NCBI GenBank assembly: GCA_963761705.1
Contig: CAVXHK010000001.1
Location: 1,925,218 to 1,989,217 of the forward strand
From: an uncultured Verrucomicrobiae bacterium
Lineage (GTDB): Bacteria > Verrucomicrobiota > Verrucomicrobiia > Chthoniobacterales > JAATET01
Length of the DNA: 64,000 nt
Direction of reading: 5' to 3'
Shown: piece by piece, positions 6,333 through 37,190 of the stretch
Numbering within the stretch: position 1 is the stretch's first letter
Layout of the letters: every line of letters starts with the position of its first letter
Notes under the pieces: generated by a model
What the model saw: only the letters and a program-made list of their open reading frames with translations
What the model was told of the DNA's origin: nothing
Database searches by the model: none
Position numbers and translations under genes: made by a program

Positions 6333-6945
6333 CGTTTGCAGAAGGTAGTCGCCGATCCGGCTCAATTGCTCTTGGATCGAAGTGAGCACGCCCTCGGCGT
6401 TCGGCAGTTGCGGGAGACGTTCGTGGAGCTGTTGCAGCCAAGCCGTCAGGCTGTCGGTGTACTCTTGAAAGTGGCTCCACGCCTGGTTGCTCTCGCTCCA
6501 GAGCGAGGCGCCAATGAACCAAAAGATGCCGCCGGCGAGGAAGGCAATCGCCAGGAGGACGGCGAAGATCGCCGGACCGCGGGGCAGGGAATGGGATTGA
6601 AGCCACCGGACCAAGGGGTGAATGCCCGTCGCCAGAACTAGGCTGGCGAGTACGAGGGCAACGAGGGAGATCAGTTCATGCGCCAGCCAGAGGGCGGCGA
6701 CGATACCCAGGACGGAGAGCGCAACCTGGATGGCAGGAAGGCGGGGGGAGCGGGGCATACTTGTTTTTCGCGGCTGCATCCGTTCGCGGTCGGGCCGGGG
6801 TGGGGGATGGACAACCAGTCGGCACGCGGTAACCGGTATCGTTCTCCTAAGTGAGCGACGCCGGAAGTCCGGTTCCGCCGGGCCGTCCGGTCGCCGCTGG
6901 TCGTTTCGCGCGATGGCGGTTCGGCTTGCTGTCGCCTCCGCGGTC

Positions 6946-7809
6946 TCACTCGGGTGGCGCGAGGTCTTCGATGAGACGCTCGTCGCCCGGGGCGTTGTGA
7001 TTCCAGTAGTCGAGGCGGGTCGTACCGCTGAGTGTGAGGCTGCCGCCGTCGGCGCGGGTCCAGGACCGAAGGATGTAGGGTGAGGTGGGCGCGAACGTGA
7101 AGACGTCGGTGCCGCCTGCGTGTTCGACGGTCACAGTCTTCGCTTCCGTGGTCGCCGTCACCGAAAAGTTGGCTTCGGTGAACTCAAGGGCGTCGGCTTT
7201 GCTGTTGACGACTGAGCCGGTGAGGGGGGCGGTGAAGGTCGTCGCGTTTTCCCAATCGAGGAGTCGGAGCTTGAAGGGGAGTTCGTCGTAAAAGAGGGCA
7301 CCGGGAGGGAGTTCGGAGTCGCGTTGGACGTCGCTCATGCCTTCCCAGTAGGTGTGGGCTCGGTAGGCGAGGGTGTCGTCGGCAACGCGTCCTTCCTTGT
7401 AGCTGTTCCCGCAGCTGTCCATGCTGGCGAGGGAGAATTTCTCGAGGTCGCCGGTCCCCGCGTTCCAGAAGCTGGAGTGCATTTGGTCGTAATGGTAGAC
7501 GCCGGTCGGGACGCGGATGATCTGATTGAGTTTGATCACCGGATACGCTCCCTGGGTTTTCCAGTCGTTTGCTTTGACTTTGTCGTTCGGGAGGAAATTT
7601 TCTCGGACGAGGATCTGACGAACCTCCGTCTCGCGCGGAACGCCGTAGCGGACTTCGAGCGCGTCGTAGAAGCTGTATTCCGCTTTGCCGTCACCCCAGA
7701 GGGTTTCGTCTTGGAGGAGGGCGGTTGTGAAGGGCGATACCGCGTGAGCATCGAGAGTCAAGGCAGCCAGGAGGCAAAAAACGGGTCGGAGCATCCGATC
7801 ATCTACCAC
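6946..7809 (-). CDS. Hypothetical secreted protein
   Basis: 287-aa ORF with an N-terminal signal-like segment (MLRPVFCLLAALTLDAHA). I recognise no family. The start may be Met at 7794. Confidence 0.55.
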   Translation of the reverse strand: MVDDRMLRPVFCLLAALTLDAHAVSPFTTALLQDETLWGDGKAEYSFYDALEVRYGVPRETEVRQILVRENFLPNDKVKANDWKTQGAYPVIKLNQIIRVPTGVYHYDQMHSSFWNAGTGDLEKFSLASMDSCGNSYKEGRVADDTLAYRAHTYWEGMSDVQRDSELPPGALFYDELPFKLRLLDWENATTFTAPLTGSVVNSKADALEFTEANFSVTATTEAKTVTVEHAGGTDVFTFAPTSPYILRSWTRADGGSLTLSGTTRLDYWNHNAPGDERLIEDLAPPE

Positions 7810-7928
7810 TGAATTACGGAACTCGCAAAGGTGAGACCGCCGTCGAAGACGACGAGAAGGATGTAGTCACCGACCTTGAAGCGCCCGGAGCGATTCGCTT
7901 CGTCGAGGGCGGTTGCCACGGCGGCGGA
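7803..7928 (-). pseudogene. Orphan fabH (KAS III) 3'-terminal fragment
   Basis: The minus strand reads ...[41 protein letters not shown]. This parallels the C-terminus of the real FabH at 19364.. (...[42 protein letters not shown]). Nucleotide identity is roughly three quarters by eye. Confidence 0.7.
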
Positions 7929-8046
7929 CTCACCTTCGCCAGCAGCGTCATCCAATGGTGACACCGTGCGAGCGCAAAACCAACCCCGGAGGGCGAGGCT
8001 CCCGCCGACCCGTAGTTAAGAAGAACCATCGTTAATCGGTAGCGGC
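7920..8046 (+). repeat. Left arm of an inverted repeat: last 13 codons of fabH plus ~85 bp of its downstream region
   Basis: The plus strand reads [13 protein letters not shown] (7920-7961). It then continues CCAACCCCGGAGGGCGAGGCTCCCGCCGACCCGTAGTTAAGAAGAACCATCGTTAATCGGTAGCGG, which matches the reverse complement of 19282-19405 with few mismatches. Confidence 0.7.
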
Positions 8047-8855
8047 TCGCCCGATAAGCACGACACGGCCCGACGGCACCAGGCAATGGCCGCCGCCCGA
8101 GTAGATCGACCGGTTACCTCCTCCAATACCCAGGACGCCGCCCGGCCTGCCTGACTTTTTGACCGGTCCGCTTGCACGGGGCGTGACAGGCCCCGGCTCC
8201 GCGGGACTGGCGCGAGTCGTGCGCGTCCGCTCGGGGGTGAGAGCACCCGCGCGATAGCGCATTCCCTACAACTGGGAAGGTCGAGCGTGCAGCCTGGGAA
8301 GGCAACATCGGCCCTGCGATCACCGGAACCGCCAGAGCGGCTGGCTTGCACTCGGGAGCGGACCTCGCGGGGGCGCGTCCGCTCTGAGCGCGGCCCGGCG
8401 GGGGCTGTAGGGTTCGTCAACCGGGCATTGCCGGAGGCATTCTATCACCCTACTCGCGGCAACGGATTAGCTGAGCGAGCGCTCTGGCGAGCGGTGCCGC
8501 GGAGGGCCCCTTCAGGGAGGCGCCGCGTCAGGCACGGCTATACGGTGGCGCTTTTGGGTGATGTGATGCCGCGCAGGTCCCGTGATCAGGCCGCAGTCGA
8601 AACCTTCCAGAAGCGAAGCGAAGGGTGGCGTTGGTCACCCGTCCGAACGCGCTCTGGCGGAGGGTCACTTCTGCAGGACGGACGTTGCCGAAAAAATGAG
8701 CGTTCGAGTTACGAAAATCCAGCGTCGGCGCGACGGACGCCGGGTGACAGGGCCATTCGCATCTGGCGTGACTGCGCGGTCGGTCGCGGAGACTGGCGTG
8801 GATTTTGGGGTCGATTGCCGTTAGCAAGCGGTTGTAAGGAGGGGATTTTTGAACC

Positions 8856-9051
8856 AATGAACGGACTGACCCCATCGACCATCGATGACCCCATCGACAA
8901 TGAACGGACTGACCCCTTCGAAATGAACGGACTGACCCCTTCGAAATGAACGGACTGACCCCTTCGACCCCTTCGACAATGAACGGACTGACCCCTTCGA
9001 CTGACCCCTTCGACAATGAACGGACTGACCCCTTCGACTGACCCCTTCGAC
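8856..9051 (+). repeat. Tandem array of six 23-bp units AATGAACGGACTGACCCCTTCGA with interspersed partial sub-repeats
   Basis: Units start at 8856, 8899, 8922, 8945, 8978 and 9015. Extra (CTGA)CCCCTTCGAC pieces follow units 1, 4, 5 and 6. The first unit variant is ...CCCCATCGA. Confidence 0.9.
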
Positions 9052-9795
9052 GTCCGGACGTACGTGCCGCAGAATGAACCGAATGGCGACCTCTACATTG
9101 GCTACTTTGGCGGGCACTGGCCTCCGGGATTGCTCCTCACGCCGGGTGCGCTCGAAGAGGCGACGAAGGTCGCCGTGGCCATGTATCGCGAGGCGGCGGA
9201 GATCATTCGCGACATCCGGCCGGACGCGATCGTGATGGGGATTTATTCCATCCCGAATTGGCGGCGCAACTTCCGACAGGATCCCACGGCTTTTGTCTAC
9301 AACATGATGCAGCGGCAGAATTTCGATCATCTCGATCAGGTGGCAGATGTCACCGACGTGATCGGCGTGAACTATTATTATTCGCAGGACGCTTCGGTGA
9401 CCCGGTTCATCCGGCGTCCCGAGGGTGAGTTGGCGTCCAATTACACGCAGAACGGCTGGGAGATTGACCCCGAGGGGCTCTATGCGGTGCTCAAACAGGT
9501 GGATGCCCGCTACGGCAAGCCGATCGTGATCACGGAAAATGGCATCGGCACCCAGAGCGAACAGAAAAAGATCCGGTATTTCCGCGAGCACGTGAACCAG
9601 ATGCGCCGAGCGATGAACGACGGCGTGGACGTGCGGGGTTACATGCCTTGGACGCTGATCGACAACTACGAATGGGCCGAGGGGTATGCCGCGAATTTCG
9701 GACTGACGAGCCTCAATCGGGAGACCCGCGAGCTGACGCTCGAACCAGCCGGCCAGTGGTATCGCGAGTTTATCAGCAAAAACCCGGAGCCCTAG
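9016..9795 (+). pseudogene. Glycoside hydrolase family 1 (beta-glucosidase-like), N-terminally truncated
   Basis: Homology starts at the acid/base motif (YVPQNEPNG). It includes the nucleophile motif (VITENGIG) and WTLIDNYEWAEGY. About 150 N-terminal residues of a normal GH1 are absent. The ORF's ATG comes from the last tandem-repeat unit. Confidence 0.75.
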
Positions 9796-9911
9796 GGCGG
9801 ATGGGGCCGAGCCATCGGTCTCCGACTGGCCGCCCGCGCGTCTCAGTAACCACCAAACGGGAAGGACGGAAGACGATTCCTGGTGTTTTTTCGCGCTGAC
9901 CGCTTGTTTCC

Positions 9912-10472
9912 CTAGTCGGTCGTCATCGACTCGAAAGTTTGCGTCAAACCGCGACGATCGAGCTCCGACAAGAGAAGCGAGCGATCAATGGCGTCTCCGG
10001 AAACTTCGAGCATGCTGCGGATGTCGCGGATGTGCTTCTCGCCGCCGCCCTCGGCGAAGAAGACGACTTTCCAGACGATAATGTATTCGGCTGGAGCGAA
10101 GGTGGCTTCTCCTTGAGAGTGGAGGATCGTTTTGCGGTTGCGCCACGCCCAGAGGAAAAATGGCTCTCGCTGGGAGGGATAGAAGTCGGCCTTCAGTCCG
10201 GAGGGCACGTGGATGACGTTGAACTGAGCGTTGGAATCGCGGTCATTTTCAGCCGCAATAACCTCCAACGGCGGCGTGTAATAATCCGGCTGGGGAAATA
10301 TCCGCGAGAGCGCGGGAAGATCGGAATCGGAGAGGGCGACAGCGAGATCGATGTCGAGAGTCAGTCTGGGCTCGCTGTAGAGCATCGCGCCGAGCGACCC
10401 GACGACGAGGTAGCGAATGCCGGCATCGTTCAGCGGATGTCCGAAAAGAGCGAGGAGGTCAGGTTCGTGCAC
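9912..10472 (-). CDS. Nucleotidyltransferase-fold protein (paralogue 1)
   Basis: 186 aa with a pol-beta NTase signature (VVGSLGAMLYSEPRLTLDIDLAV). Paralogous to 17194..17733. Confidence 0.7.
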   Translation of the reverse strand: MHEPDLLALFGHPLNDAGIRYLVVGSLGAMLYSEPRLTLDIDLAVALSDSDLPALSRIFPQPDYYTPPLEVIAAENDRDSNAQFNVIHVPSGLKADFYPSQREPFFLWAWRNRKTILHSQGEATFAPAEYIIVWKVVFFAEGGGEKHIRDIRSMLEVSGDAIDRSLLLSELDRRGLTQTFESMTTD

Positions 10473-10659
10473 GAGAGGTTTCGCGGGCGAGTTCGCGTTC
10501 GACTTCTTCAGCTGACCAGTCTGGGTGGGCGTGGGCGATAGCGCAGCGGCGAACCCGGCGAGCGGTGTTCAACAGGCCCTGAGCGACGGTGAACTTCTCA
10601 GCGGGCGACATGGCTCGGAAACGCTCGACCTGAATGGCGTGGAGCGGTTCGTATCGCAT
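10459..10659 (-). CDS. Small helical partner protein of the NTase (paralogue 1)
   Basis: These are the last 66 codons of listed ORF 10459..10953, starting at ATG 10659 (MRYEPLHAIQVERFRAMSPAEKF...). It overlaps the NTase start by 14 nt. Homologous to 16934..17215 (ERF..MS..E.F core). Confidence 0.5.
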   Translation of the reverse strand: MRYEPLHAIQVERFRAMSPAEKFTVAQGLLNTARRVRRCAIAHAHPDWSAEEVERELARETSRART

Positions 10660-10723
10660 AGCGCTAGTTCTAACACTTGCGCCAACAATCTCAACGCTGG
10701 AAAGTTCTAGGTGAAAGCACCGA

Positions 10724-11143
10724 TTGGAGAGAAGCGCAGAAAAGCGGGTGTCGCAGAGACTGGCCCACGACATGGAGCGGGCTGAGGATCTGGCGAATGA
10801 GGGGTTGCGGGTTGCAGGGCTAGAGGAGAAGGAGCACGCGGGGCTAAAAGGAAGCGATCCACGGAAGGTGGAGGTGGCGCGGGTGATTCGCCGAAATACA
10901 ACGGCGTCGCTGGGATGGATTTCGCAACGTCTGGAGATGAAGAGTTCGGCCAACGTCAGTCAGCAGCTACGGACGACCAATGCAGCGAGCTTGCGGCGCA
11001 GACTTCCGATTGAATTCGCAGCATGGCTCGAACGAATCGATGCAGGGGTAAAAGAATTGCTTTTTGCACACTTCTCTGAAAAGGAAGCGAAGTGGGTGTC
11101 AAGGGAGGAAATTACGGTGGATGAGCGCAAAGATCGTCGCTAG
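10724..11143 (+). CDS. Hypothetical protein; possible remnant carrying an HTH tail
   Basis: 139-aa ORF. From memory, the segment DPRKVEVARVIRRNTTASLGWISQRLEMKSSANVSQQL resembles the C-terminal HTH tail found on some transposase-like proteins. No catalytic domain is present. This call is weak. Confidence 0.3.
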   Translation: MERSAEKRVSQRLAHDMERAEDLANEGLRVAGLEEKEHAGLKGSDPRKVEVARVIRRNTTASLGWISQRLEMKSSANVSQQLRTTNAASLRRRLPIEFAAWLERIDAGVKELLFAHFSEKEAKWVSREEITVDERKDRR

Positions 11144-11356
11144 ATAAGGGATTGGGAGGGGTGTTTGCAGGCTATCGGGCACGGGCGGAGCGACGCCTTT
11201 GCTGCAGGCAAAAGCTGTAAACTTGGGTGAACGAACGATGCTGGAATCACACTTCTCTGCGGGGCGGGCATGATATTCAGAGACCCCCATCCATTGCGAC
11301 GATCAGATCCCCAGCCCTCCATCCTGACCCAAGGTGCGCCGACTAAGTGCTAGGAC

Positions 11357-12574
11357 TTAGCGACCAACCAGTCGTGCATTGGAGCGGCTGGGGAAATTGT
11401 TCGAAGAGGATTTTCGCAAAGAGGCTCGGGCTTTCTTTTGAGCTGGTTGATCAACCCTTTCCTTTGCCGGACCGCGTCGGGGAAGGACTCCCGCGTCGCG
11501 GCCCTGGCATCGGAGTTTTTGGGTCACTGGAAAGTTCGTGTAGGTTCGCTCCTGGGTCAAGAGGCTCCAGGTGATGCGAGCCATCCGGCGGGCGGTGGCC
11601 AGGATGGCGGTGTTGGCTTTTTTACCATGGGCGCGTTTGGCTTTGTAATAGTCGCCGAAGTAGGGCGAGCAGCCGACGGCCACCCAGGCGGCTTCGACGA
11701 AGGCCCAGCGCAGCCACTTGTTGCATTGGGTCAGCAGTCGGCCCTGATGGGTCTTTCCGCCACTGCTGCTCGTCGAGGGACAGAGTCCGGCGTAACCGCA
11801 GAGCTTCTGCGCGGAGGGGAAACGGCCAATCCCGTCGATCTCGGCGACAACGACAGCCGCCAGAATGGGTCCCATGCCGGGAATGCTCCGCACGCGCTTT
11901 AACTCTGGGCTGTCATCGAGCATGCCAGCGAGCGCTCGTTCGTCCTCGCGGATGCGGGCGACCAGTTCCTTGAGTAGGGCGAGCTGCTGGGTGAGCAGCA
12001 GACCGGCGGGATCGGGAAGCTCGAGCTTCTCCAAGAAGCTCAAGCCCTTCTTGCCGAAGAGATCACTGCATTGTGGCAATTTGAGATCGTGTTGGCCGCC
12101 GAGTAGTCGATGGATCCGATTGCGCAGCATCGTGCGCTGACGCACGAAAAAACAGCGCTGTCGCAGGACCTCTTTGATTTGGCGGGTCTGGCGGCAGGGA
12201 ACGTGAACGCTCGAGACCAAATTGGCTCGTAACAGATTGGCCAGCGCCCGGGCGTCGATCTTATCGGTCTTGATCTGGGCCTCGGCGATGATCCTTGTCT
12301 TGAACAGGTTGGCCAAGACGATGTCCTCACTCGGAAGGACGGCTTCGAGAATCTCGTAGAGCCAATGCCAGTTCATCGTGGCCTCGAAGACGACCTTGCA
12401 ACCGGGCCAGCATTCGACAAGCCGCCTGAAGTCCTCCGGAATGGCGTGATCGATGCGGCCTTGGCCGAGTATCGTGCCTTGGGAATCCAGCGCACAATAA
12501 ACGCTGTATCTCTTGTGGTAATCGATGCCAATGAAGGTTGGATCGACGGCGATTGGGGTAGGACGGGTTTTCAT
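11357..12574 (-). CDS. IS110-family transposase
   Basis: 405-aa ORF. N-terminal DEDD-type motifs (IGIDYHKRYSV, VVFEATMNWHW) and a C-terminal IS110 domain (SIPGMGPILAAVVVAEIDGIGRFPSAQKLCGYAGLCPS..SSGGK). Element ends were not determined. Confidence 0.9.
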   Translation of the reverse strand: MKTRPTPIAVDPTFIGIDYHKRYSVYCALDSQGTILGQGRIDHAIPEDFRRLVECWPGCKVVFEATMNWHWLYEILEAVLPSEDIVLANLFKTRIIAEAQIKTDKIDARALANLLRANLVSSVHVPCRQTRQIKEVLRQRCFFVRQRTMLRNRIHRLLGGQHDLKLPQCSDLFGKKGLSFLEKLELPDPAGLLLTQQLALLKELVARIREDERALAGMLDDSPELKRVRSIPGMGPILAAVVVAEIDGIGRFPSAQKLCGYAGLCPSTSSSGGKTHQGRLLTQCNKWLRWAFVEAAWVAVGCSPYFGDYYKAKRAHGKKANTAILATARRMARITWSLLTQERTYTNFPVTQKLRCQGRDAGVLPRRGPAKERVDQPAQKKARASLRKSSSNNFPSRSNARLVGR

Positions 12575-12687
12575 CCTACAATTTACACCATTGGATTTAT
12601 CAGGCTCTCCTGACGTTGACTCTCGCAGACCTTGCGTTTATCGGCCTTTCATGTCGCCTGACCCCTATTTCCCCTGTGTTCCTCTTG

Positions 12688-13797
12688 TCAGTCCTTTTCC
12701 TTGGCATTCTGAGCAATTCGGAGAGCTTCCATAAATTTCTTTTCCCAAGCCACGACTAGACCGCTTCTAGAATGAAAATACGAAGTCGCTTCAACGCAAC
12801 TTGCAAGTGTGCCTCCCTCCCTTAATCGGTCCGCTACTTGATCAAGTTCTTCAGGATTACTATTCCTATACGCGCCAGAGTTGAAGTATCCTAAGAGCGT
12901 GGCGTAAAGGATTCGCGCATTTACGGCCTCGGTCAATTCCTTCCCTACAAATAGATCACGATAGAGAGTTTTGTATTTTGAACCCTCTCTTGTCACAACC
13001 TGCCTGTTCTTTAGAATGCCTAAGTAAAGCACCCAGGATTCGATATTCACACGGAGCGGCATTGCTTTATCCCATCTAGGGGCGTCATTACCTAACCAAA
13101 ACTTAATGTTTGCAGGAAGCGGAAGTAATCCCCTTTCGCCTTCGGAATGTGTGTGATCGGGGTCCAACATTCCCGAGCTGCTCAGGCCCATCGCCATGTA
13201 GATGCTGCAGAGGGCATCTTCCAGGGAGACCGGGATAGCATTGTCATAGGATGCGGCAATATGCTGGTTGACTGCCTCGACAATCTGTGAAATTGCTTCT
13301 GCGTTCGTTTCGATGAATTCACTGGGATTCAAGTCATTAGAAATCAGATTGATCCTATTTGGTATTACCAGAGGTGGAGTCAGGGGATCTGGTTCGCGAG
13401 ATCCAGAAATAATGACAGGTGTTAGACTGGGAACGGACACTTCGATTTGCTTTTCCAATTTCGCCTTTGTCTCTGTCACTAAGCCCGTATCCAACAGAAA
13501 CCGGAGTGCATTCCCGCGCGCACTTTCATCACTCTCTTCCATCGCTCTAACGATCAGAGTTGATTCGAATTCTAGCCTCTGGGTTTTCTCAGCTTGGAGG
13601 CCCTGCAGGAAGTGAGAGAGAATGGCAAGTATTGCGGTAGATATTGCGCCGGCAATCGCCAACCCAATGGGAGATCCCAAGAGTGGAATAATTCCTCTCT
13701 GTTCTACGTCGGGCCTCTTGAGGGCTTGCAGTTGGAGAGTCGCAACCTCAAATCGGATTTCGTCCAATTTGCTCTTTAGCTCTAAATTTTCTTGCAT
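12688..13797 (-). CDS. Membrane-anchored protein of unknown function (cassette gene 4)
   Basis: 369-aa ORF in the AT-richer block. It has an N-terminal coiled-coil-like segment, one hydrophobic helix (IIPLLGSPIGLAIAGAISTAILAILSHFL) and a ~300-aa C-terminal domain I cannot assign. Confidence 0.65.
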   Translation of the reverse strand: MQENLELKSKLDEIRFEVATLQLQALKRPDVEQRGIIPLLGSPIGLAIAGAISTAILAILSHFLQGLQAEKTQRLEFESTLIVRAMEESDESARGNALRFLLDTGLVTETKAKLEKQIEVSVPSLTPVIISGSREPDPLTPPLVIPNRINLISNDLNPSEFIETNAEAISQIVEAVNQHIAASYDNAIPVSLEDALCSIYMAMGLSSSGMLDPDHTHSEGERGLLPLPANIKFWLGNDAPRWDKAMPLRVNIESWVLYLGILKNRQVVTREGSKYKTLYRDLFVGKELTEAVNARILYATLLGYFNSGAYRNSNPEELDQVADRLREGGTLASCVEATSYFHSRSGLVVAWEKKFMEALRIAQNAKEKD

Positions 13798-13811
13798 TGC
13801 TTGTTTGGACT

Positions 13812-13930
13812 AACGTCGAAGTCCTCCTGCGCCTGGCATGGAGTGAGCCTTCGACAGCGGCTTGGCGGGGTTGTATCGTTCATGACGGCTGAACTCGCGG
13901 CGAGTCAGGCGTTAGGAGCGACGCCTTGTT
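13812..13930. repeat. Leader element copy 1 (~118 nt, self-complementary)
   Basis: Aligns end to end with 15637-15753. Shared termini are AACGTCGAAGTCCT... and ...GAGYGACGCCTTGTT. The internal CTTCGAC is complementary to GTCGAAG. It ends 14 nt upstream of the 369-aa gene start on the coding strand. Confidence 0.55.
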
Positions 13931-14175
13931 CGGGTTCTTCTAATCTTGGTGGACTCTTTCTTAGGTGCCCCAGCAAAGATAGCCTGTTGAATCTGAGTCT
14001 TGGTCTTATGATCTTTAAAGTAGCGGTTAGTTGTAAACGTCTCATCAGCGGCCATCTCTTCCTTGACTAGTGTCCTGACAATATTAATTGCGTCAGGGAT
14101 CAGTCTGCGAGCTTCTGTTAGATCGTAGGGGGACTTGCCTCGCGCTTCGCAAAGCTGATACACAGCAAAAAGCAC
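13912..14175 (-). CDS. Small hypothetical protein (cassette gene 3)
   Basis: 87-aa ORF with a GTG start, 18 nt after the AIPR stop. Its basic C-terminal tail (RRTRTRRRS) is encoded inside leader element copy 1, so the true extent is uncertain. Confidence 0.35.
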   Translation of the reverse strand: MLFAVYQLCEARGKSPYDLTEARRLIPDAINIVRTLVKEEMAADETFTTNRYFKDHKTKTQIQQAIFAGAPKKESTKIRRTRTRRRS

Positions 14176-14192
14176 GTGATAACCGCCATCGA

Positions 14193-15617
14193 TTAAGAAC
14201 AGAAGCGATAAATCAACATTCTCTTTCTTACGTATTTTTTTTGTATTTCTAGCTTCCTTATTTGGATCTGCTCATACAATCGCAAAGAAACCAAGAGCTG
14301 CTGGGTAGTAACCTCACTATTGAACACTGTGGCGTATAGATCTCGGAACACTCGCGCTCTGTCTTTTTTAGCAACCTCAGGCAATCCATGCGAATATGCC
14401 AGATGTGACTGTCCGGCTGACAACGCATCGATGCGCTTGTCTCTAGCTTCATTTGAATGCTGGCGGGCCTTGCGTTCGTAAAATATTCCTAGATCTCTAA
14501 ACGATTCTTCGAGTTTCTTCTGAATGTCATCATTCGAATGAAGGTCTCGTGTGTTAATCGGAGTCTGGCTATTGGTTGCCTCTGCGATCTTAGATGTGAT
14601 ATCCCGACTCCGAGTTTCGTAAATTCGTCTGAGCACAAGTACATCCTCAAGCTTCGCTGGTTCTTTTAAGTGGGCTTCAAAAAGTGCATTTGAAGTCTGC
14701 CCCCCGTTTACAATTTGGACGTTCGTAAGTGCTATTTTTGGGCTCCGACGAGCGGGTTGATAGGAGAATGAGTCACATGTCATCGTGATGCCATTGTTCA
14801 GATACCAAAATTCGGAGTTCTCATCTGAAAGTGCCGTCTCGTAGATCTTCTTATTTACAGCATTTCTTTTTGTTAGGTAGATGCGGACGTTGTCGTTGAA
14901 CGCATCGTATCGAACCTTTTTATCGTCCTCTGGATCCGTAATGAGCTTGACGATTTCGTTTGCTTCAAAAGTGCATATCATTCCTCGAATATTTCCGTCG
15001 CTTCGTTCGAAGTAGTTCTTATCAACTGCTCTGAGCTCAGCATCGATCTTTGGTTTTTTTCGATCGAGAAACATTTGCACGATCGAGTCTAGCGAATGGT
15101 GATGCACTTCAAAGGAGGTGTAGTCTTCAAGGGACTCCGCAACTCGTGCTTGATGTGTTTTTACCATTGCCTTCGTATTTCCACAAAAATGCACATGAAA
15201 CGTTGGGTTGGGTCTTTCGAGAGCAGTCCAGATTTCCTGAACCTTGGTCCAGAGTATCGGGTTGCACGTTCGCTCCATTCCGTTGCTTTCGTTTAGTAGA
15301 TCGGCGCAGAAGGATAGGATTTTATCAATTTCGTTCGAAGGGAAGTTGTTCTTAGCTTTGTCAAATATTGCTACATGTTTGAATTGGAAAAGGTGGATGT
15401 CATTACAATCCTCTCGATCATCGACAAACACCGCATCTACACCGCGGTCATCGCTCCCGTCCGTGATGCTGTCGGTGATCTCCTCGGGAGAGAGAGCAAG
15501 CAGATATTCCAGAGCTATATGCGAGAAAGCCTTCTTTTCCGTTGTGGCATAGTCGGATTCACCGACGTAGGCTTTGCATTTTTGCACGAGAGCATTCCAA
15601 TCGATGAGTGTTGTCAT
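14193..15617 (-). CDS. AIPR (abortive infection phage resistance) family protein (cassette gene 2)
   Basis: 474-aa ORF. It has an N-terminal DGSDDRGVDAVFVDD motif and a C-terminal IVNGGQTSN motif, both recalled as typical of the AIPR family (PF10592). Confidence 0.75.
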   Translation of the reverse strand: MTTLIDWNALVQKCKAYVGESDYATTEKKAFSHIALEYLLALSPEEITDSITDGSDDRGVDAVFVDDREDCNDIHLFQFKHVAIFDKAKNNFPSNEIDKILSFCADLLNESNGMERTCNPILWTKVQEIWTALERPNPTFHVHFCGNTKAMVKTHQARVAESLEDYTSFEVHHHSLDSIVQMFLDRKKPKIDAELRAVDKNYFERSDGNIRGMICTFEANEIVKLITDPEDDKKVRYDAFNDNVRIYLTKRNAVNKKIYETALSDENSEFWYLNNGITMTCDSFSYQPARRSPKIALTNVQIVNGGQTSNALFEAHLKEPAKLEDVLVLRRIYETRSRDITSKIAEATNSQTPINTRDLHSNDDIQKKLEESFRDLGIFYERKARQHSNEARDKRIDALSAGQSHLAYSHGLPEVAKKDRARVFRDLYATVFNSEVTTQQLLVSLRLYEQIQIRKLEIQKKYVRKRMLIYRFCS

Positions 15618-15636
15618 GGTTGTATTTTTTTTCCCG

Positions 15637-15753
15637 AACGTCGAAGTCCTTCTACACCTGCCAAGGGGCGAGGCTTCGACCGTGGGTTGAAGGTTGAATG
15701 GTCATAACGAACTGAATTCACCTTGGTGTAGGACTTAAGAGTGACGCCTTGTT
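15637..15753. repeat. Leader element copy 2 (~118 nt, self-complementary)
   Basis: Occupies the 147-bp gap between the nuclease gene stop (15765) and the AIPR start (15617). It ends 19 nt upstream of the AIPR start on the coding strand. See copy 1. Confidence 0.55.
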
Positions 15754-15764
15754 ATGCATTTGTC

Positions 15765-16811
15765 TCATCTTGGGAGAGACATGAGGAATTCGTCAACCCA
15801 TTCGAAAAGACGGTCTGAAGGATCATCGCCCTGCTCCCTCATATGAAGCATTTCGCAGATCTTCTCGTCGTCCAAGACAAGGAGAAGTTTCCCACTTTCC
15901 CTCATAGCTCCCTGAGCCATCTTGATCGCATTTGCGTGGGCGCCCTTACGTGAAAAGATTATCGCCACACGACGCAACGCCCTCTCAAGCAAATACTTCT
16001 CCGTTGTCAGTATCTGCCCCTGCTTGATGAAACCGACGTAGTTCTTGAATTCGAATAAAACATATCGACTATCGAGATCCTCAATAAGAAATCTCCAGAA
16101 TTCGGTGGCCGGCTTAATCCTGCAGATATAGTCGAACCGATTCAGTCCATCATCCGTTCGTTTCTGCGTATGCCAGCCATGAAGATCGCCAGGAAAGAGA
16201 TAGCGGAGAATGTTATCGCAAAGTTCTTCATAAGCGCTCCATGCCTTCTTCCCCTTCTTCAGTACTTTCAGTTCGTTGCATAAGTCCGTCCCCCGAGTAT
16301 CAACCGCTGGCTGCGCTGGACGATTTGGATCGGGGCTCGGCAGTTGCGCAACGCTTCGCCCTCCAGTCTTTTCCTCGCCGGCTGGGGGTTCTTCAAGGAG
16401 AGCCGACAGCCTGTCTTGAAGTTCTGGAGCATTTGCGCACCAAACGAACAAATCCGTTCGATCAACAAAAACGATGCCATATTCCTGCTCAAGACGCAGT
16501 CGTTGTTCAGGGAGCAGGTCTGAGGATACAATCAGCATGCCTCTCTTGAGGTTGGATGATTGTTCGATCGCTTGAATGAGCTTTGCCGCGGCCGATCGAA
16601 GGAGTGATATCTGCGCTTTTCTTGTGCGGTAGAACTTTAATTCCACTGCCCAATCTTGGTCGGCAAGTGAGATCCAGAAGTCGAATCCGCGATCTGGTCC
16701 CGAGGTACGCTCCCGATCTACTCCGAAGCCGTTCGCTTTGAGCAATGCGACTACTAGATCCTCGAACTCAAAGGCTATTCGGATGAAGTGGGACATCGGC
16801 TCTTTCTGCAT
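15765..16811 (-). CDS. Protein with two restriction-endonuclease-like PD-(D/E)xK domains (cassette gene 1)
   Basis: 348 aa. The N-terminal Mrr-like core is FEFEDLVVALL...GFDFWI...AVELKFYR...MLIVSS. The C-terminal second core is YEELCDNILRYL...RFDYICRI...VLFEFKNY..KQGQ. The two are joined by a Pro/Ala-rich linker. Confidence 0.7.
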   Translation of the reverse strand: MQKEPMSHFIRIAFEFEDLVVALLKANGFGVDRERTSGPDRGFDFWISLADQDWAVELKFYRTRKAQISLLRSAAAKLIQAIEQSSNLKRGMLIVSSDLLPEQRLRLEQEYGIVFVDRTDLFVWCANAPELQDRLSALLEEPPAGEEKTGGRSVAQLPSPDPNRPAQPAVDTRGTDLCNELKVLKKGKKAWSAYEELCDNILRYLFPGDLHGWHTQKRTDDGLNRFDYICRIKPATEFWRFLIEDLDSRYVLFEFKNYVGFIKQGQILTTEKYLLERALRRVAIIFSRKGAHANAIKMAQGAMRESGKLLLVLDDEKICEMLHMREQGDDPSDRLFEWVDEFLMSLPR

Positions 16812-16933
16812 AAGTTTAGAAGTTTGGCGCGGCGGGTGAATGGCGTCCAGAGAGAAGCGAACTAGAGGCGTTGTTCGCTGTTGCCGCCACTGACTTGTTA
16901 GCTATCTTCGATTCCTTCAAAAGGGTCTGTCCT

Positions 16934-17215
16934 TTATATTGACACATTCTGCCGGTTGCTTTGGCTGTCGGCGTCGGCAACGTGATTCGCCACCGGTGGG
17001 TTCCACGCGGTCCCGTAGATGCGCTCGAAGAGGAGTTTTCGACGGCGCTCTTCGGAAAGGTCTTTCGGAAAGGATGCGCAGATCATCTCTCGCGCCGCGT
17101 CGAACATGCGGGAGCCCATTTCGAACCGCTCGGCTCCGGAGCGGGCCATCAATCGTTCGCGGACCATGGCGGCGATCTCGGGCGGGGTGTCGCTCAGCTC
17201 TGGCATGATCGCCAC
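16934..17215 (-). CDS. Small helical partner protein of the NTase (paralogue 2)
   Basis: 93-aa ORF overlapping the 3' end of the NTase gene by 22 nt. Homologous to 10459..10659 (AERFEMGSRMFDAAREMI versus ERFRAMSPAEKFTVAQGLL). Confidence 0.5.
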   Translation of the reverse strand: MAIMPELSDTPPEIAAMVRERLMARSGAERFEMGSRMFDAAREMICASFPKDLSEERRRKLLFERIYGTAWNPPVANHVADADSQSNRQNVSI

Positions 17216-17733
17216 AGGCTATCGACACCGAGCGGTTGCGCCCAGCGTTTGATGATTGAGTCATCGTATCCGCTGGCGATGAGGTTGCGGACGTCCTGAA
17301 GCTGGCGGTCGGATTCTGAATCTTTAGCCCAGACGAGTTTGGAAAGGATGAGGTCCTCTTTGCTGACGATCCACGTTTCGAAATCGGTAACCGTGATTTG
17401 TTGGCGTCGCTGGAATTCTTCGCGGCGGTAGGGTGTCGATTTCCGGACGATGCAGTCCACTTTGATCACGCTTTCATTGTGGATCAGATTGAACATCCAC
17501 TCGTCGCGGATGGATTCGGCGACGGCGTCGGGTGAGACGTAGTAGTCTGGATCGAACAAACGAACGATGGTTTCTGCGTTCGACGGAACGAGCGCGACAA
17601 CGATGTCGATGTCACGGGTCATGCGCGGTTCGGCGTAGTAGTTCATCGCCATTGAGCCGGTGAGCATGTAGGCGATGCCGGCCGCGCTGAGTTTCTGGGA
17701 AACGTCGCGGACGATATCGAGCTCGGATAGCAT
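17194..17733 (-). CDS. Nucleotidyltransferase-fold protein (paralogue 2)
   Basis: 179 aa with the NTase signature LTGSMAMNYYAEPRMTRDIDIVV. Paralogous to 9912..10472. Confidence 0.7.
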   Translation of the reverse strand: MLSELDIVRDVSQKLSAAGIAYMLTGSMAMNYYAEPRMTRDIDIVVALVPSNAETIVRLFDPDYYVSPDAVAESIRDEWMFNLIHNESVIKVDCIVRKSTPYRREEFQRRQQITVTDFETWIVSKEDLILSKLVWAKDSESDRQLQDVRNLIASGYDDSIIKRWAQPLGVDSLWRSCQS

Positions 17734-17743
17734 GGTGCGTCGC

Positions 17744-19186
17744 TTACGCGTGGTACTCCTGTAGGCTCTTCACTTCGAGCGTCTTCTCTTTCAGTGACCG
17801 GATGGCGGCGACGCTGGCTTGGGCGCCGCGGACGGTGGTCATGGTGGCGATGCGATTTGCTACGGCGAGGGAGCGGATTTTCATCTCGTCGATCCGGGGT
17901 TGGGTGCCGGAGGGGGTGTTGATGATGAACTGGATCTCGCCGTTTTTGATCATGTCCAGGCAGTTCGGGCGGCCTTCGTTGAGGCGGAAGAGGTTTTCGG
18001 CTTTCACGCCGGCTGCGGCGAGGGCGGCTTGGGTGCCGGCGGTCGCGTAGAGCGTGAAGCCGAGTTCGGCGAACTCCTTGGCGACCGGGATGATGGCGGG
18101 TTTGTCGCTGTCGCGGACGCTGAGGAAGACGTTGCCGCTCTCGGGGAGGGCGGGCTGGGCGGACATCTGGGCTTTCGCGTAGGCGAGGCCGAAGTCGGCG
18201 TCGATGCCCATGACTTCGCCGGTGGATCGCATTTCCGGTCCGAGGGTGATGTCGGTGCCGGGGAATTTGATGAACGGGAAGACGGCTTCCTTCACGCTGA
18301 AGTGGGTCGGGATGATTTCTTCGAGGAAGCGGTCGATGAGGACGGGGCGCTCGGGTGAGGCTTCGACGGCGGTGTTGAGGTATTGGCGGAGATTGGACTC
18401 GGTGTAGACGATTTCCATGGCGCGGCCGCCGAGGACGAAGGAGGGGCGGACGAGGACGGGGTAGCCGACGCGGTTGGCGACGGCGACGGCTTCGTCTTCG
18501 TTCGTGGCGGTGGCGCCGATGGTTTGTTGAAGGCCGAGCTTGTCCAGCATGGCGGCGAAGAATTTGCGGTCCTCGGCTTTTTCGATGCTGGCGGGCTGGG
18601 TGCCGATGATGGTGCAGCCGTTGGTCTGGAGGTCGGCGGCGAGGTTGAGCGGGGTCTGGCCGCCGAACTGGACGATGACGGCGTCGCACGCTTCGGCCTC
18701 GTAGATGTTGAGGACGTCTTCGAGGGTGAGGGGTTCGAAGAAGAGCTTGTCCGAGGTGTCGTAGTCGGTGGAGACGGTCTCGGGGTTGCTGTTGACCATG
18801 ATGGTCTCCCAGCCTTCGTCCTTGAGCGCGAAGGCGGCGTGGACGCAGCAGTAGTCGAACTCGATACCCTGGCCGATGCGGTTGGGGCCGCCGCCGAGGA
18901 TCATGACCTTCTTTTTATCCGAGGCGCGGATTTCGTTTTCGTCGCCGTAGGTGCTGTAGAAGTAGGGCGTGTAGGCCTCGAACTCGGCGGCGCAGGTGTC
19001 GACGAGGCGGTAGGTGGGGAGGAGGCCTTCGGACTTCCGGCGGGCGCGCATTTCGGCCTCCGGCTGATCGTTGCACATGAAGGCGAGCTGGCGGTCGGAG
19101 AAGCCGAGCTTCTTGAACTTCCGCAGGGGCAGGCCGCTGGTGGTGACCAGTCGGGAGGTGCTGCGGGATCCGGGCTTGCCGGGAGT
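17744..19186 (-). pseudogene. carB: carB (carbamoyl-phosphate synthase large subunit) fragment: C-terminal half with an internal in-frame deletion
   Basis: Homology begins at ...LPLRKFKKLGFSDRQLAF, about residue 480 of a ~1070-aa CarB, after an in-frame TAA at 19187-19189. It contains VMILGGGPNRIGQGIEFDYCCVH and GPEMRSTGEVMG. The sequence jumps from VLIDRFLEE directly to IIPTHFSVKEAVFPF, which by recall of E. coli CarB skips about 120-130 residues. Confidence 0.8.
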
Positions 19187-19281
19187 TTATTTGCGGCTTC
19201 CGGACTGGGCGTCGGAGGAAGTGCATTGAGGCCGGGGCCTTGCTTCGATCTGGTGTTGCCGGGGGGTGGTTTTCTGGAGGG

Positions 19282-19405
19282 CCGTTACCGGTTAGCGTCG
19301 GTTCTTCTTAACTACGGCTCGGGGTGAGCCTCGCCCTCCGGGGTTGGCGGGTTGCAGCGAGGGTCACCACTGGATGACGGAGCTGGCGAACGTGAGACCG
19401 CCGCC
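19282..19405 (-). repeat. Right arm of the inverted repeat (fabH 3' tip plus downstream region)
   Basis: This is the reverse complement of 7920-8046 with few mismatches. It covers the last 13 codons and stop of the intact fabH plus about 82 bp downstream. Confidence 0.7.
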
Positions 19406-20380
19406 GAAGACGACGAGGAGGATGTAGTCACCTTCAACGAAACGGCCGGAGCGGTTGGCTTCGTCGAGGGCAATGGCGACGGCTGCGGCGGAGGTGTTGC
19501 CGTAGCGGTCGAGGTTGACCATGAACTTCTCGATGGGAATTTTCATCCGTTCGGAAAGCGCTTCGATGATGCGCATGTTCGCTTGGTGCGGGATGATGCA
19601 GGTGAGGTCGTCGATGGTGAGGTCGGCGGCATCGAGGGCGTGCCGGGCGGAGTGACTCATCGAGAGAACGGCTTGCTTGAAGGTCTCGCGTCCGTTCATG
19701 TGGAGCGTGTTGAGGCGCTCGTCCACGTTGTCTTTGGTGACCGGGATGGCGCAGCCGCCGCCGGGCATGTGGAGGATGTCGCCGTAGTTGCCGTCGCTGC
19801 CCATGTAGGTCGTGATGACGCCGTGGGAACCGGCGCGGTAGCGGAGGATGGCGGCACCGGCTCCGTCACCGAAGAGGACGCAGGTGTTGCGGTCGGTCCA
19901 ATTCATGATGGAGGAGAGTTTGTCGGCTCCAATCACGAGGATCGTCTCGTAGGTGTGGTTGGCGATGAATTGCTGGGCAATCTCGACGCCATAGAGGAAG
20001 CCGGAGCAGGCGGCGGAGACGTCGAAGCAGGCGGCTTCCTTCGCGCCGAGGTGACGCTGAACGTGGCAGGCGGTGGAAGGGAAAAAGGTGTCGGGGGTGA
20101 CGGTGGCGACAAGGATGAGGTCGATCTCGTGAGCCGTGATCCCGGCTTGTTCCATGGCACGCTCGGCGGCCTTGGCGGCCAGGTGGCTGGTGTGTTCGCC
20201 TTCGGCGGCGATGCGGCGCTCTTTGATGCCGGTGCGGGAGGTGATCCATTCGTCGTTGGTGTCGACGAGTTTTTCGAGTTCGGCGTTGGTGAGGATGCGT
20301 TCGGGGACGTAACTGCCGGTGCCGATGATGGAGACCGTGCGGTTAGGCTGCTGGGTCCGGGTCCGAGGAGACTTTTTCAT
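19364..20380 (-). CDS. fabH: 3-oxoacyl-ACP synthase III
   Basis: 338 aa with FabH motifs: [10 protein letters not shown], ACSGF active-site Cys, HQAN, GNTSAA. Confidence 0.9.
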   Translation of the reverse strand: [338 protein letters not shown]

Positions 20381-37178: not shown

Positions 37179-37190
37179 CACCTCATAAAT

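What the first reader, a model, noticed from the sequence alone, without database searches (positions are those of the whole stretch)
7803..19492. An 11.6-kb plasticity zone bounded by three copies of the fabH 3' terminus, including a head-to-head junction at a GGCGGCGG microhomology
Seen in sequence:
- (i) The intact fabH ends at 19364 and is followed downstream by an ~82-bp segment (19282-19363).
- (ii) 7920-8046 is an inverted copy of that tip plus the downstream segment. Its plus strand reads [13 protein letters not shown] and then the same downstream sequence with few mismatches.
- (iii) 7803-7928 is a more diverged direct-orientation copy of the last ~41 codons (...[34 protein letters not shown]).
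- Copies (ii) and (iii) abut head to head and share GGCGGCGGA (7920-7928).
- Everything between these repeats is accessory or decayed: an ORF-poor 0.8 kb, the tandem array, truncated GH1, NTase modules, IS110, the AT-richer cassette and a carB fragment.

Established knowledge:
- Islands that integrate into the 3' end of a gene leave a displaced 3' fragment as a direct repeat.
- Fold-back or template-switch events create inverted junctions at microhomology.

Inference: fabH's 3' end has served as an integration or recombination site, and at least one inversion or fold-back followed. No integrase gene remains in the window.
Basis: partly seen in the sequence, partly recalled or inferred. Interest (0 to 1): 0.6.

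Follow-up and report, generated by a model that had tools for sequence, protein, structure and literature searches.

The report
Accessory-gene island inside fabH's 3' end
An 11.6-kb block of defence genes, gene fragments and an insertion sequence lies inside the last ~45 codons of the fatty-acid gene fabH of an uncultured soil verrucomicrobium. It carries a replacement gene end and leaves the original end as a relic, which is an ordinary kind of gene-exchange hotspot with an unusually legible recombination scar.

Summary
**Observation.** All three fabH 3' copies are real.
- i: 19364-19488.
- iii: 7803-7928, direct, 82% identical to i.
- ii plus downstream segment: 7920-8070, inverted, about 82-88% identical to i.

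**Empty site.** Two related Chthoniobacterales contigs (L081, L083) have fabH, then 9 nt, then the 287-aa gene that follows iii in the window. So 11,561 bp were inserted within fabH's last ~45 codons.

**Which copy is what.**
- iii is the native end, now decaying: three substitutions and one codon deletion at otherwise invariant positions.
- The last ~300 nt of the intact fabH is a mosaic tract of a different allele, found by a post-hoc window test.
- ii is a third allele.
- An in-situ fold-back is therefore not supported.

**Context.**
- Nine relatives show at least six different neighbours after fabH.
- One relative (contig_8207) has an island with the same two non-coding ends (dsA, and dsB inverted), different cargo and no relic.
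- No integrase was found in either island as far as it could be read, or among 20 further ORFs elsewhere in the window.

**Best reading.** This is a gene-exchange hotspot at the end of the plsX-fabH operon. It turns over by homologous recombination anchored in fabH, and the far junction is sealed illegitimately at an 8-9-nt GGCGGCGG inverted microhomology.

**Verdict.** Known kind, modest interest. The conserved ~67-nt core of the inverted ends is unexplained.

The parts
6946..7809 (-). 287-aa secreted protein of unknown function (p287); the native downstream neighbour of fabH
   Evidence: It has no Pfam hit. Homologues lie 9 nt after fabH in L081 and L083. Window 6961-7927 is colinear with them.
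7803..7928 (-). Copy iii: the displaced native fabH 3' end (codons ~292-338 plus stop), now a decaying relic
   Evidence: It is 82% identical to 19366-19488. It carries I->T, E->K, G->D and one Ala-codon deletion at positions invariant in 10 functional FabH. It groups with the L083/L081 allele.
7920..7928 (.). Head-to-head junction: GGCGGCGGA. It is the sense of codons 326-328 and also the antisense of codons 292-294.
   Evidence: This is read directly from the sequence. The same inverted 7-9-mer pair occurs in every functional fabH tail examined.
7920..7961 (+). Copy ii: an inverted fabH tip ([13 protein letters not shown]), a third allele
   Evidence: It has 5 nt differences from i and no amino-acid change, including TCC->AGC. 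It shares AGC-AGC with L085 and L086.
7962..8144 (+). dsB: the non-coding distal island end, inverted relative to dsA. The conserved core is 7980-8069.
   Evidence: It is 86% identical to L084 2048-1862, which is the distal end of the contig_8207 island. The core is 82% complementary to 19258-19347.
8145..8843 (.). ORF-poor non-coding stretch; 8432-8808 is conserved with the contig_8207 island
   Evidence: It is 79-80% identical to L084 227-588 and 1573-1749. Its indels are not multiples of three. It has no Rfam or Pfam hit.
8844..9039 (+). Tandem array of 23-37-nt units containing ATGAACGGACTGACCCC
   Evidence: family D1.
9016..9795 (+). GH1 beta-glucosidase, C-terminal fragment
   Evidence: Pfam PF00232, profile positions 251-451 of 453.
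9912..10953 (-). Nucleotidyltransferase-like ORF (9912-10472) with an overlapping upstream Rv0078B-like antitoxin ORF (10459-10953)
   Evidence: Pfam PF18993 at E=4e-6. Homology to the NTase at 17194-17733 was judged by eye from the translations and was not aligned with a tool.
11357..12574 (-). IS110-family transposase
   Evidence: Pfam PF01548 and PF02371.
12688..16811 (-). AT-richer cassette (45-50% GC): an unknown 369-aa protein, AbiU/AIPR (14193-15617) and an Mrr-like nuclease (15765-16811)
   Evidence: Composition; Pfam AIPR and Mrr_cat; PADLOC AbiU at 1.5e-68 and PDC-M36A.
17194..17733 (-). AbiEii/DUF6036-like nucleotidyltransferase
17744..19150 (-). carB pseudogene fragment: the N-terminal ~480 aa are missing and the second ATP-grasp domain is cut
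   Evidence: Pfam domains. The frame extends to about 19150, where dsA homology ends.
19135..19363 (-). dsA: the non-coding proximal island end directly after the fabH stop. The conserved core is 19258-19347.
   Evidence: It is 91% identical to L082 11018-11179 (blastn, 163 nt). The continuous window/L082 alignment runs on to L082 11246, equivalent to window 19135.
19364..19670 (-). Replacement 3' part of the intact fabH. This includes copy i (19364-19488). It is a mosaic tract of foreign allele.
   Evidence: Between -304 and -70, 9 of 13 informative sites match L085. Elsewhere in plsX-fabH, 11 of 80 do (Fisher p about 7e-5, post-hoc window). The VE motif is shared only with L085.
19364..20380 (-). 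Intact fabH (KAS III, 338 aa), the last gene of the conserved coaD-yceD-rpmF-plsX-fabH block
   Evidence: synteny.

Best explanation
**What it is.** The end of the conserved coaD-yceD-rpmF-plsX-fabH block is a gene-exchange hotspot in this group of Chthoniobacterales.

**What happened in the window's lineage.**
- The ancestral order was fabH, 9 nt, p287.
- An 11,561-bp piece of foreign or accessory DNA entered within the last ~45 codons of fabH.
- On the proximal side it joined by homologous recombination inside fabH. The crossover was about 300 nt before the stop.
- As a result, the working gene now ends in an imported 3' part (copy i) followed by the island's proximal non-coding end (dsA).
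- On the distal side the incoming DNA ended in an inverted fabH tip plus dsB (copy ii).
- That end was joined illegitimately to the recipient's own fabH at an 8-9-nt GC-rich inverted microhomology: GGCGGCGG, codons 326-328 sense, equal to codons 292-294 antisense.
- This left the recipient's own last ~46 codons (copy iii) as a non-functional relic in front of p287.

**Formal equivalents.** The event could be a homology-facilitated illegitimate recombination. It could equally be a single Campbell-type crossover of a circular intermediate closed at that junction.

**After entry.** Cargo (defence genes, IS110, gene fragments) turned over between the two conserved non-coding ends.

**Shown.**
- The empty site.
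- The relic status of iii.
- The mosaic 3' part of fabH.
- The allelic distinctness of the three tails.
- The shared island ends in a second genome.
- The absence of a recombinase.

**Inferred.**
- The order of events.
- The one-sided-homology mechanism.
- That the donor already carried the inverted tip.
For: **Empty sites.** L081 and L083 have fabH followed after 9 nt by the p287 homologue. Window 6961-7927 aligns colinearly to them at 80-82% over about 980 nt.

**iii is a decaying native end.**
- It has 3 substitutions and 1 codon deletion at positions invariant in 10 functional FabH.
- iii matches L083 against i at 17 sites, versus 5 and 5 for the other two patterns.
- The last-25-nt allele type (TTTGCGAGTTC..ATTCA) is linked to a p287 neighbour in 3 of 3 cases.

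**The intact fabH's 3' part is imported.**
- L085-like sites cluster between -304 and -70: 9 of 13, versus 11 of 80 elsewhere (p about 7e-5, post hoc).
- pS between i and iii is 0.52, above the i-orthologue values compared of 0.35-0.42.

**The tails are reticulate.** The observed combinations of upstream motif and last-25-nt type are EV+1, EV+2, VE+2, VE+3, EI+2 and EI+3. This implies crossovers near the GGCGGNGG site.

**Hotspot behaviour.** Nine relatives with 93-96% identical FabH show at least 6 different neighbours after fabH, while the upstream block is constant.

**No recombinase.** None was found in the window island or in the read part of the contig_8207 island.

**Literature.**
- Many hotspots lack mobile-element genes and show raised homologous recombination in flanking core genes (PMC5635113).
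- Homology-facilitated illegitimate recombination joins the non-homologous end at 3-10-bp microhomologies (PMC6382021, citing de Vries and Wackernagel 2002).
Against: - The model needs a donor, or an earlier state, that already had an inverted fabH tip next to dsB. No such genome was found. In contig_8207, dsB abuts a TonB-dependent receptor gene instead.
- Two genomes share both non-coding ends as inverted repeats with a very conserved ~67-nt core. That looks like a feature with a function of its own, such as a recombination or binding site, and plain homologous exchange does not explain it.
- The tail analyses rest on 117-126 sites, and the mosaic-tract window was chosen after seeing the data.
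- Natural transformation is unknown for this lineage.
- The source appears to be a metagenome assembly, so the junction itself lacks read-level confirmation.
Confidence: 0.55

Rival explanations
1. This is a classical integrative island or integrative element. A site-specific recombinase integrated a circular element whose attP carries the fabH 3' end. Copies i and iii are attL and attR, and the integrase gene has since been lost.
For: - There is a direct repeat of the target gene's 3' end, the gene is reconstituted, and an empty site exists in relatives.
- The cargo is defence-rich.
- A second genome has an island starting at the same place, with the same proximal end.
Against: - No integrase or recombinase was found in either island or among 20 other ORFs of the window.
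- The repeat has no identical core longer than 14 nt.
- Crossover positions differ between genomes. In L082 the tail is L083-like over -126 to -43 (96%) and window-i-like over the last 42 nt (93%). By eye, the switch lies near -25. In the window the imported tract starts near -304.
- The contig_8207 island has inverted ends, not direct ones, and no fabH relic.
Confidence: 0.15
2. The island is a non-autonomous transposon-like element whose ~110-150-bp terminal inverted repeats are dsA and dsB. In the window each end would be extended by a fabH tip, so that either orientation restores the gene. It would be mobilised in trans and would target the 3' end of fabH, by analogy with Tn7-like elements that insert next to conserved genes.
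For: - Inverted ends with an almost invariant ~67-nt core occur in two species, with unrelated cargo between them.
- In contig_8207 the element sits exactly in the short gap between the convergent fabH and TonB-dependent receptor genes. That gap is 22-42 nt and empty in L087 and L086.
Against: - There is no transposase other than an internal IS110 or IS5-like copy.
- No target-site duplication could be identified.
- The ds core occurs only twice in 64 kb and nowhere else in about 200 fetched loci. It has no match in plasmid or phage collections and no exact match to a 32-nt core pattern in viral contigs.
- The first ~40 nt after the fabH stop in L085 resemble the start of dsA although no island is there (read from the sequences printed). 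This suggests that dsA is partly native 3' flank.
- The window genome and contig_8207 may be sister species (guaA 94%), so the shared ends may simply be inherited.
Confidence: 0.12
3. This is an in-situ fold-back, or tandem inversion duplication. A template switch at the quasi-palindrome TCCGCCGC...GGCGGCGG in fabH produced a direct-inverted-direct triplication of the gene end, which later diverged and was filled with cargo.
For: - The topology is direct-inverted-direct.
- The head-to-head junction lies exactly at a short inverted repeat intrinsic to fabH.
Against: - The copies are not derived from one parent. iii is closer to L083 (90%) and L081 (87%) than to i (80%).
- ii is a third allele, with a different downstream sequence.
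- i and iii have different downstream DNA (dsA versus p287). A tandem inversion duplication does not predict this.
Confidence: 0.05
4. This is an assembly artefact. The head-to-head junction, or the whole insert, is a chimera made by a metagenome assembler from several co-occurring congeneric populations.
For: - At least six related contigs with 93-96% identical FabH come from one sample, ERZ25039505.
- The window's own proteins occur only once, on a 2.14-Mb contig, in NCBI/ENA.
- The three tails look like three alleles.
Against: - Both flanks are the two halves of one syntenic neighbourhood seen intact in L081 and L083.
- Per-gene divergence to relatives is similar on both flanks.
- An independent contig shows the same dsA and inverted-dsB architecture.
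- A 9-nt overlap is not what overlap-based assemblers join on.
- iii shows relic-type decay rather than a functional allele.
Confidence: 0.07

Closest known systems
Horizontal-transfer hotspots flanked by core genes and diversified by homologous recombination (Oliveira et al. 2017, PMC5635113)
   Same: - One interval next to a conserved core gene holds different accessory genes in related genomes.
- There is no integrase.
- There are recombination signals in the flanking core gene.
- Defence genes and an IS are present as cargo.
   Different: - The crossover zone lies inside the coding 3' end.
- One event left a duplicated, displaced gene end plus an inverted tip.
- The distal boundary is not a conserved core-gene crossover but a microhomology junction.
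[quoted passage not shown] 2002; summarised in PMC6382021)
   Same: - There is a one-sided homologous anchor: about 300 nt of the fabH 3' part.
- Several kb of foreign DNA were carried in.
- The far end is joined at a GC-rich 8-9-bp microhomology close to the anchor.
   Different: - It is known from laboratory transformation of Acinetobacter, Pseudomonas stutzeri and pneumococcus. It usually deletes recipient DNA rather than duplicating about 130 nt of it.
- Competence is unknown here.
- The joined strand is inverted relative to the recipient gene.
Genomic islands and integrative elements that integrate into the 3' end of a gene and carry a replacement end (tRNA genes; protein genes such as guaA and fda - from general knowledge, not tested here)
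   Same: - The target gene stays intact thanks to an element-borne 3' end.
- The displaced native end remains as a direct repeat.
- An empty site exists in relatives.
   Different: - There is no site-specific recombinase.
- There is no identical att core.
- Crossover positions are variable.
- The island ends are inverted.
Tandem inversion duplications formed at quasi-palindromes (Salmonella work of the Roth laboratory - from general knowledge)
   Same: - The order of copies is direct-inverted-direct.
- The head-to-head junction lies at a short inverted repeat.
   Different: - The three copies are different alleles.
- They have different flanks.

Membership tests
Integrase-mediated integrative island in a gene's 3' end | Direct repeats (attL/attR) made of the target gene's 3' end flank the insert | tested here: met
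   A 123-nt direct repeat, 82% identical, spaced 11,561 nt apart.
Integrase-mediated integrative island in a gene's 3' end | A tyrosine or serine recombinase gene lies inside the island, usually at one end | tested here: not met
   Pfam scans of the island ORFs examined gave only an IS110 DEDD transposase. None was called or found in the contig_8207 island.
Integrase-mediated integrative island in a gene's 3' end | An identical core sequence is shared by the two repeats, at a fixed position in all occupied sites | tested here: not met
   The longest identical run is 14 nt. Allele switch points differ between the window (about -304) and L082 (about -25). contig_8207 has no second fabH copy.
Integrase-mediated integrative island in a gene's 3' end | An unoccupied site exists in related genomes | tested here: met
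   L081 and L083 have fabH, then 9 nt, then p287.
Core-gene-flanked HGT hotspot with homologous-recombination turnover | The same interval holds different gene content in related genomes | tested here: met
   At least six different neighbours follow fabH in nine relatives: p287, a TonB-dependent receptor cluster, a DinG-like helicase, HhH-GPD, a 150-aa ORF with an RND pump, and a ds-bounded island.
Core-gene-flanked HGT hotspot with homologous-recombination turnover | There is a recombination signal in the flanking core gene | tested here: met
   There is a clustered L085-like tract in the last 300 nt of fabH (the window was chosen post hoc). The allele combinations of the two tail segments are incompatible with a single tree.
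Core-gene-flanked HGT hotspot with homologous-recombination turnover | A second conserved flank serves as the other crossover | tested here: inconclusive
   p287 and the permeases are conserved on the far side. However, the actual distal junction in the window is a microhomology inside a fabH relic, not a crossover in p287.
Homology-facilitated illegitimate recombination | The illegitimate joint lies at a 3-10-bp, usually GC-rich, microhomology near a homologous anchor | tested here: met
   GGCGGCGGA at 7920-7928 is shared by the two abutting fragments. The anchor is the fabH 3' part.
Homology-facilitated illegitimate recombination | DNA uptake by natural transformation and dependence on RecA | not testable with these tools
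Tandem inversion duplication / fold-back | All copies derive from the same local parental sequence | tested here: not met
   i versus iii is 80% identical, while iii versus L083 is 90%. pS between i and iii is 0.52. ii is a third allele with a different 3' flank.
TIR-bounded transposon (for example Tn7-like, next to a conserved gene) | Terminal inverted repeats at both ends | tested here: met
   The dsA and dsB cores are 82% complementary over 90 nt in the window. The same pair is present in contig_8207.
TIR-bounded transposon (for example Tn7-like, next to a conserved gene) | Cognate transposition genes and a target-site duplication | tested here: not met
   No tnsABC-like or other cognate transposase was found. 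No direct duplication was recognisable at the ends in contig_8207.

The most novel reading that the evidence does not exclude
The two inverted non-coding ends (dsA and dsB, with a ~67-nt nearly invariant core) may be the working ends of an undescribed, non-autonomous cargo-carrying element that docks at the 3' end of fabH. In the window each end is prolonged by a copy of the last 13 fabH codons. Insertion, or inversion of the 11-kb segment between the arms, would then leave fabH intact in either orientation. The recombinase would be encoded elsewhere in the genome or would be a host enzyme.
Probability: 0.1. Interest if true: 0.65.

Novelty: new member of a known kind. Interest (0 to 1): 0.33.

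Why it matters
**Direct value.**
- It documents a gene-exchange hotspot with defence-gene cargo (AbiU/AIPR, an Mrr-like nuclease, AbiEii-like modules). The host is a poorly studied, uncultured soil lineage: Chthoniobacterales/Terrimicrobiaceae, Verrucomicrobiota.
- It shows unusually clearly how such a hotspot can be filled without an integrase. One junction lies in homologous coding sequence. The other lies at a short inverted microhomology, with the displaced gene end kept as a datable relic.
- It is a natural example of what has mostly been shown in laboratory transformation experiments.

**Larger if true.** If the conserved inverted ends prove to be recombination sites, the finding would matter more. 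It would then be a new docking system for accessory genes next to an essential lipid-synthesis gene.

Tried and rejected
1. **Structured RNA or known RNA family in the downstream segment.**
   - Rfam found nothing at gathering threshold or at E<=1 over 7700-9100.
   - Single-sequence folds were no better than shuffles.
   - The four-sequence alignment fold showed no covariation.
   - No tRNA or tmRNA lies at either end.
2. **Metagenome scan with the 18-mer CCCCGRAGGGCGAGGCTC.** The 120 loci returned were chance matches with no extended ds similarity.
3. **Viral, plasmid and phage searches.** An exact 32-nt ds-core pattern in viral contigs, and 7920-8840 against the plasmid and phage collections, gave no match.
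4. **p287 directly after fabH in the more distant species of the genome-contig scan (L001-L007).** It was not found there. Those genomes have pyrH or TatD after fabH. Only the closer relatives, reached through protein look-ups, were informative.
5. **Further fabH relics next to p287 in other genomes (L084, L210, L211).** None was found.
6. **A full carB or a GH1 parent in the window or the relatives' loci, to date the fragments.** None was found.
7. **Coding potential of 8145-8840 and of the ds core.** There is no conserved frame, and indels break the frame.
8. **Chimeric flanks.** Per-gene divergence is similar on both sides of the island.

Full report
**1. The observation**

The window is high-GC DNA (about 62%) from a member of Chthoniobacterales/Terrimicrobiaceae (Verrucomicrobiota), judged from the best genome matches to its FabH.

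fabH lies on the minus strand at 19364-20380. It is the last gene of a block made of coaD, yceD, rpmF, plsX and fabH.

The three copies of its 3' end are real.
- 7805-7927 aligns without gaps to 19366-19488 at 82%.
- 7920-8070 aligns to the reverse complement of 19258-19405. This match has three parts: a 42-nt coding tip (88%), a poorly conserved 18-nt spacer, and a 90-nt core at 82% (pair I1).
- A 31-nt pattern from that core occurs exactly twice in the window and never in 100 shuffles.

The two left-hand copies overlap in GGCGGCGGA (7920-7928).

The interval between the repeats holds only accessory or broken genes:
- a GH1 fragment;
- two AbiEii/DUF6036-like nucleotidyltransferases, one with an Rv0078B-like antitoxin;
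- an IS110 transposase;
- a 45-50% GC cassette with AbiU/AIPR and an Mrr-like nuclease;
- a carB fragment that is truncated and internally deleted.

**2. The empty site**

Protein searches gave FabH relatives at 93-96% identity and p287 relatives at 70-84%. Several pairs lie on the same contigs.

In L081 (a JGI contig of 6,952 nt) and L083 (ERZ25039505 contig_12398), fabH is followed after 9 nt by the homologue of the 287-aa gene. In the window that gene lies at 6946-7809. Next come two ABC permeases on the other strand, and in L083 also glucokinase, as in the window.

Window 6961-7927 is colinear with those fabH-p287 stretches: 985 nt at 82% and 978 nt at 80%. The homology stops at 7927.

Copy iii is therefore the displaced end of the orthologous fabH, still attached to its old neighbour. 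The insert measures 11,561 nt, which is the spacing of the direct repeat.

**3. Which tail is which**

*Copy iii is a relic.*
- It carries I->T, E->K, G->D and the loss of one Ala codon.
- All of these lie at positions invariant in the ten functional FabH tails compared.

*Copy iii is not a copy of i.*
- For the triple iii, i and L083, iii agrees with L083 against i at 17 sites. The other two patterns have 5 sites each.
- pS between i and iii is 0.52. Between i and the three orthologues compared it is 0.35-0.42.
- The last 25 nt occur in three allele types. Type 1 (TTTGCGAGTTC..ATTCA) is found in iii, L081 and L083, which are exactly the three tails followed by p287.

*Copy i carries a different allele.* It has a VE motif shared only with L085.

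*The working gene has an imported 3' part*.
- I took sites where L081 and L082 agree and L085 differs, along the plsX-fabH alignment.
- The window follows L081/L082 at 69 of 80 sites outside the tract.
- Between -304 and -70 it follows L085 at 9 of 13 sites (Fisher p about 7e-5).
- The interval was chosen after seeing the data.
- The working gene therefore has an imported 3' part of about 300 nt.

*Copy ii is a third allele.*
- It has five differences from i and no amino-acid change. One difference is TCC->AGC.
- It shares AGC-AGC with L085 and L086.
- It was therefore shaped as the end of a working fabH in some lineage.

*The tails are reticulate.* Across genomes the two tail segments occur as EV+1, EV+2, VE+2, VE+3, EI+2 and EI+3. 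This cannot be a single tree, and it places crossovers near the GGCGGNGG site.

**4. The surroundings in relatives**

The upstream block is constant, but the DNA after fabH differs:

| Locus | What follows fabH |
|---|---|
| L081, L083 | p287 |
| L086, L087, L088 | a convergent TonB-dependent receptor with ExbB, ExbD and TonB |
| L085 | a DinG-like helicase |
| L089 | HhH-GPD |
| L212 | a 150-aa ORF and an RND pump |
| L082 plus L084 (contig_8207) | an island |

The contig_8207 island is instructive.
- Its first 229 nt after the fabH stop match the window's 19135-19363 (dsA). The identity is 91% over the 163 nt aligned, and one search gives the full extent.
- Its far end matches the window's 7960-8144 (dsB, 86%) and 8432-8808 (79%), also inverted.
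- The cargo between these ends is unrelated: a NACHT ATPase, an endonuclease, an RHS protein and an IS.
- It sits in the gap between the convergent fabH and a TonB-dependent receptor. That receptor is split there into ORFs of 261 and 472 aa, each 77% identical to the L087 receptor.
- The same gap is 22-42 nt and empty in L087 and L086.
- It has no fabH tip at dsB and no relic.

dsA and dsB share a core of about 67 nt that is almost invariant in all four copies, while the flanks differ.
- The core has no Rfam match, no significant fold and no covariation.
- It has no conserved reading frame.
- No further copies were found in anything fetched.

**5. The mechanism**

No tyrosine or serine recombinase was found in the island ORFs scanned. 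None was called or found in the part of the contig_8207 island that was read. None was found among 20 more ORFs of the window.

The direct repeat has no identical core longer than 14 nt. The allele switch points differ between genomes. This argues against a fixed att site and for homologous crossovers in fabH.

The distal joint is a short GC-rich microhomology. Because GGCGGCGG (codons 326-328) is the reverse complement of the S-A-A codons 292-294, an inverted fabH tip can pair with the recipient gene about 100 nt upstream.

The simplest account has four parts.
- Incoming DNA carried fabH's 3' part, dsA, cargo, inverted dsB and an inverted tip.
- It recombined homologously about 300 nt before the stop.
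- Its other end was sealed at the microhomology.
- This duplicated about 130 nt and left copy iii.

This is the pattern of homology-facilitated illegitimate recombination (PMC6382021). It fits the general picture of hotspots that lack mobile-element genes and diversify by recombination in flanking core genes (PMC5635113). A single crossover of a circle closed at the same joint would give the same product.

What remains unexplained:
- where the inverted tip next to dsB came from;
- why the ds core is so conserved.

**6. Rivals**

- *Integrase-mediated island with a lost integrase.* The direct repeat and the empty site fit. The recombinase and core tests fail.
- *Transposon-like element with ds ends.* The inverted ends in two species and the precise intergenic position in contig_8207 fit. 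No transposase, target duplication or other copies were found. The two genomes may also be sisters (guaA 94%), so the ends may be inherited.
- *In-situ fold-back.* The allele analysis excludes it.
- *Assembly chimera.* The source is probably a metagenome assembly from a sample with many congeners, so this cannot be excluded for the 9-nt joint itself. Against it stand the matching synteny and divergence of both flanks, the relic-type decay of iii, and the independent contig with the same architecture.

**7. Verdict**

- The "fold-back or inversion afterwards" part is not supported as stated.
- The finding is a new member of a known kind: a core-gene-flanked hotspot or island with a displaced gene end.
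- It has an unusually readable junction and one loose end, the conserved inverted ds core.
- Interest is about 0.33.

Noticed in passing
window 3436-6960: A second accessory block lies on the other side of p287. It holds a cupin gene (3559-4065) and an AI-2E transporter gene split into 6258-6779 and 4226-4906. The split is caused by a ~1.35-kb insert with a DDE-like ORF (5394-6278) that has no Pfam hit. The whole block is absent from L081 and L083, where the permease stop abuts the p287 stop. L084 has a BrkB-like gene there instead.
   Followed up: partly
window 13801-13930 and 15626-15753: A ~150-nt homologous leader sequence (about 75% identical) lies directly upstream of two consecutive genes of the AT-richer cassette, the unknown 369-aa gene and AbiU/AIPR. 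It could be a shared promoter or 5' UTR, or a cassette boundary.
   Followed up: partly
window 8432-8808; L084 227-588 and 1573-1749: A non-coding block is conserved at about 80% between the two islands. It has highly conserved sub-blocks and frame-breaking indels. In contig_8207 it is partly duplicated around an IS (DUF4096/DDE_Tnp_1). It has no Rfam hit, and its function is unknown.
   Followed up: partly
window 8844-9039: A tandem array of 23-37-nt units each contains ATGAACGGACTGACCCC. The last unit supplies the start codon of the truncated GH1 ORF (9016-9795).
   Followed up: no
window 37190-38345: ARAGORN calls a tRNA with a four-base anticodon (ctac), and Rfam scores it as tRNA at 45 bits. 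An IS1-like transposase ORF (37518-38345) follows it.
   Followed up: no
window 22794-24380 (guaA): guaA is 94.3% identical to contig_8207, while neighbouring genes are 82-92% identical. This could reflect strong conservation or a recent recombination tract between the two lineages.
   Followed up: no
L001 3040-3340: In a more distant Terrimicrobiaceae MAG, three tandem ~120-nt repeats fill the space between fabH and pyrH. This is another sign that the DNA after fabH is unstable in this order.
   Followed up: no
L085 11018-11060: The first ~40 nt after the fabH stop in contig_12075 resemble the start of dsA (CCCTCG..GCCAA.CCCGGA.GG) and then diverge into a hairpin. No island is present there. 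Part of dsA may be ancestral 3' flank of fabH.
   Followed up: partly
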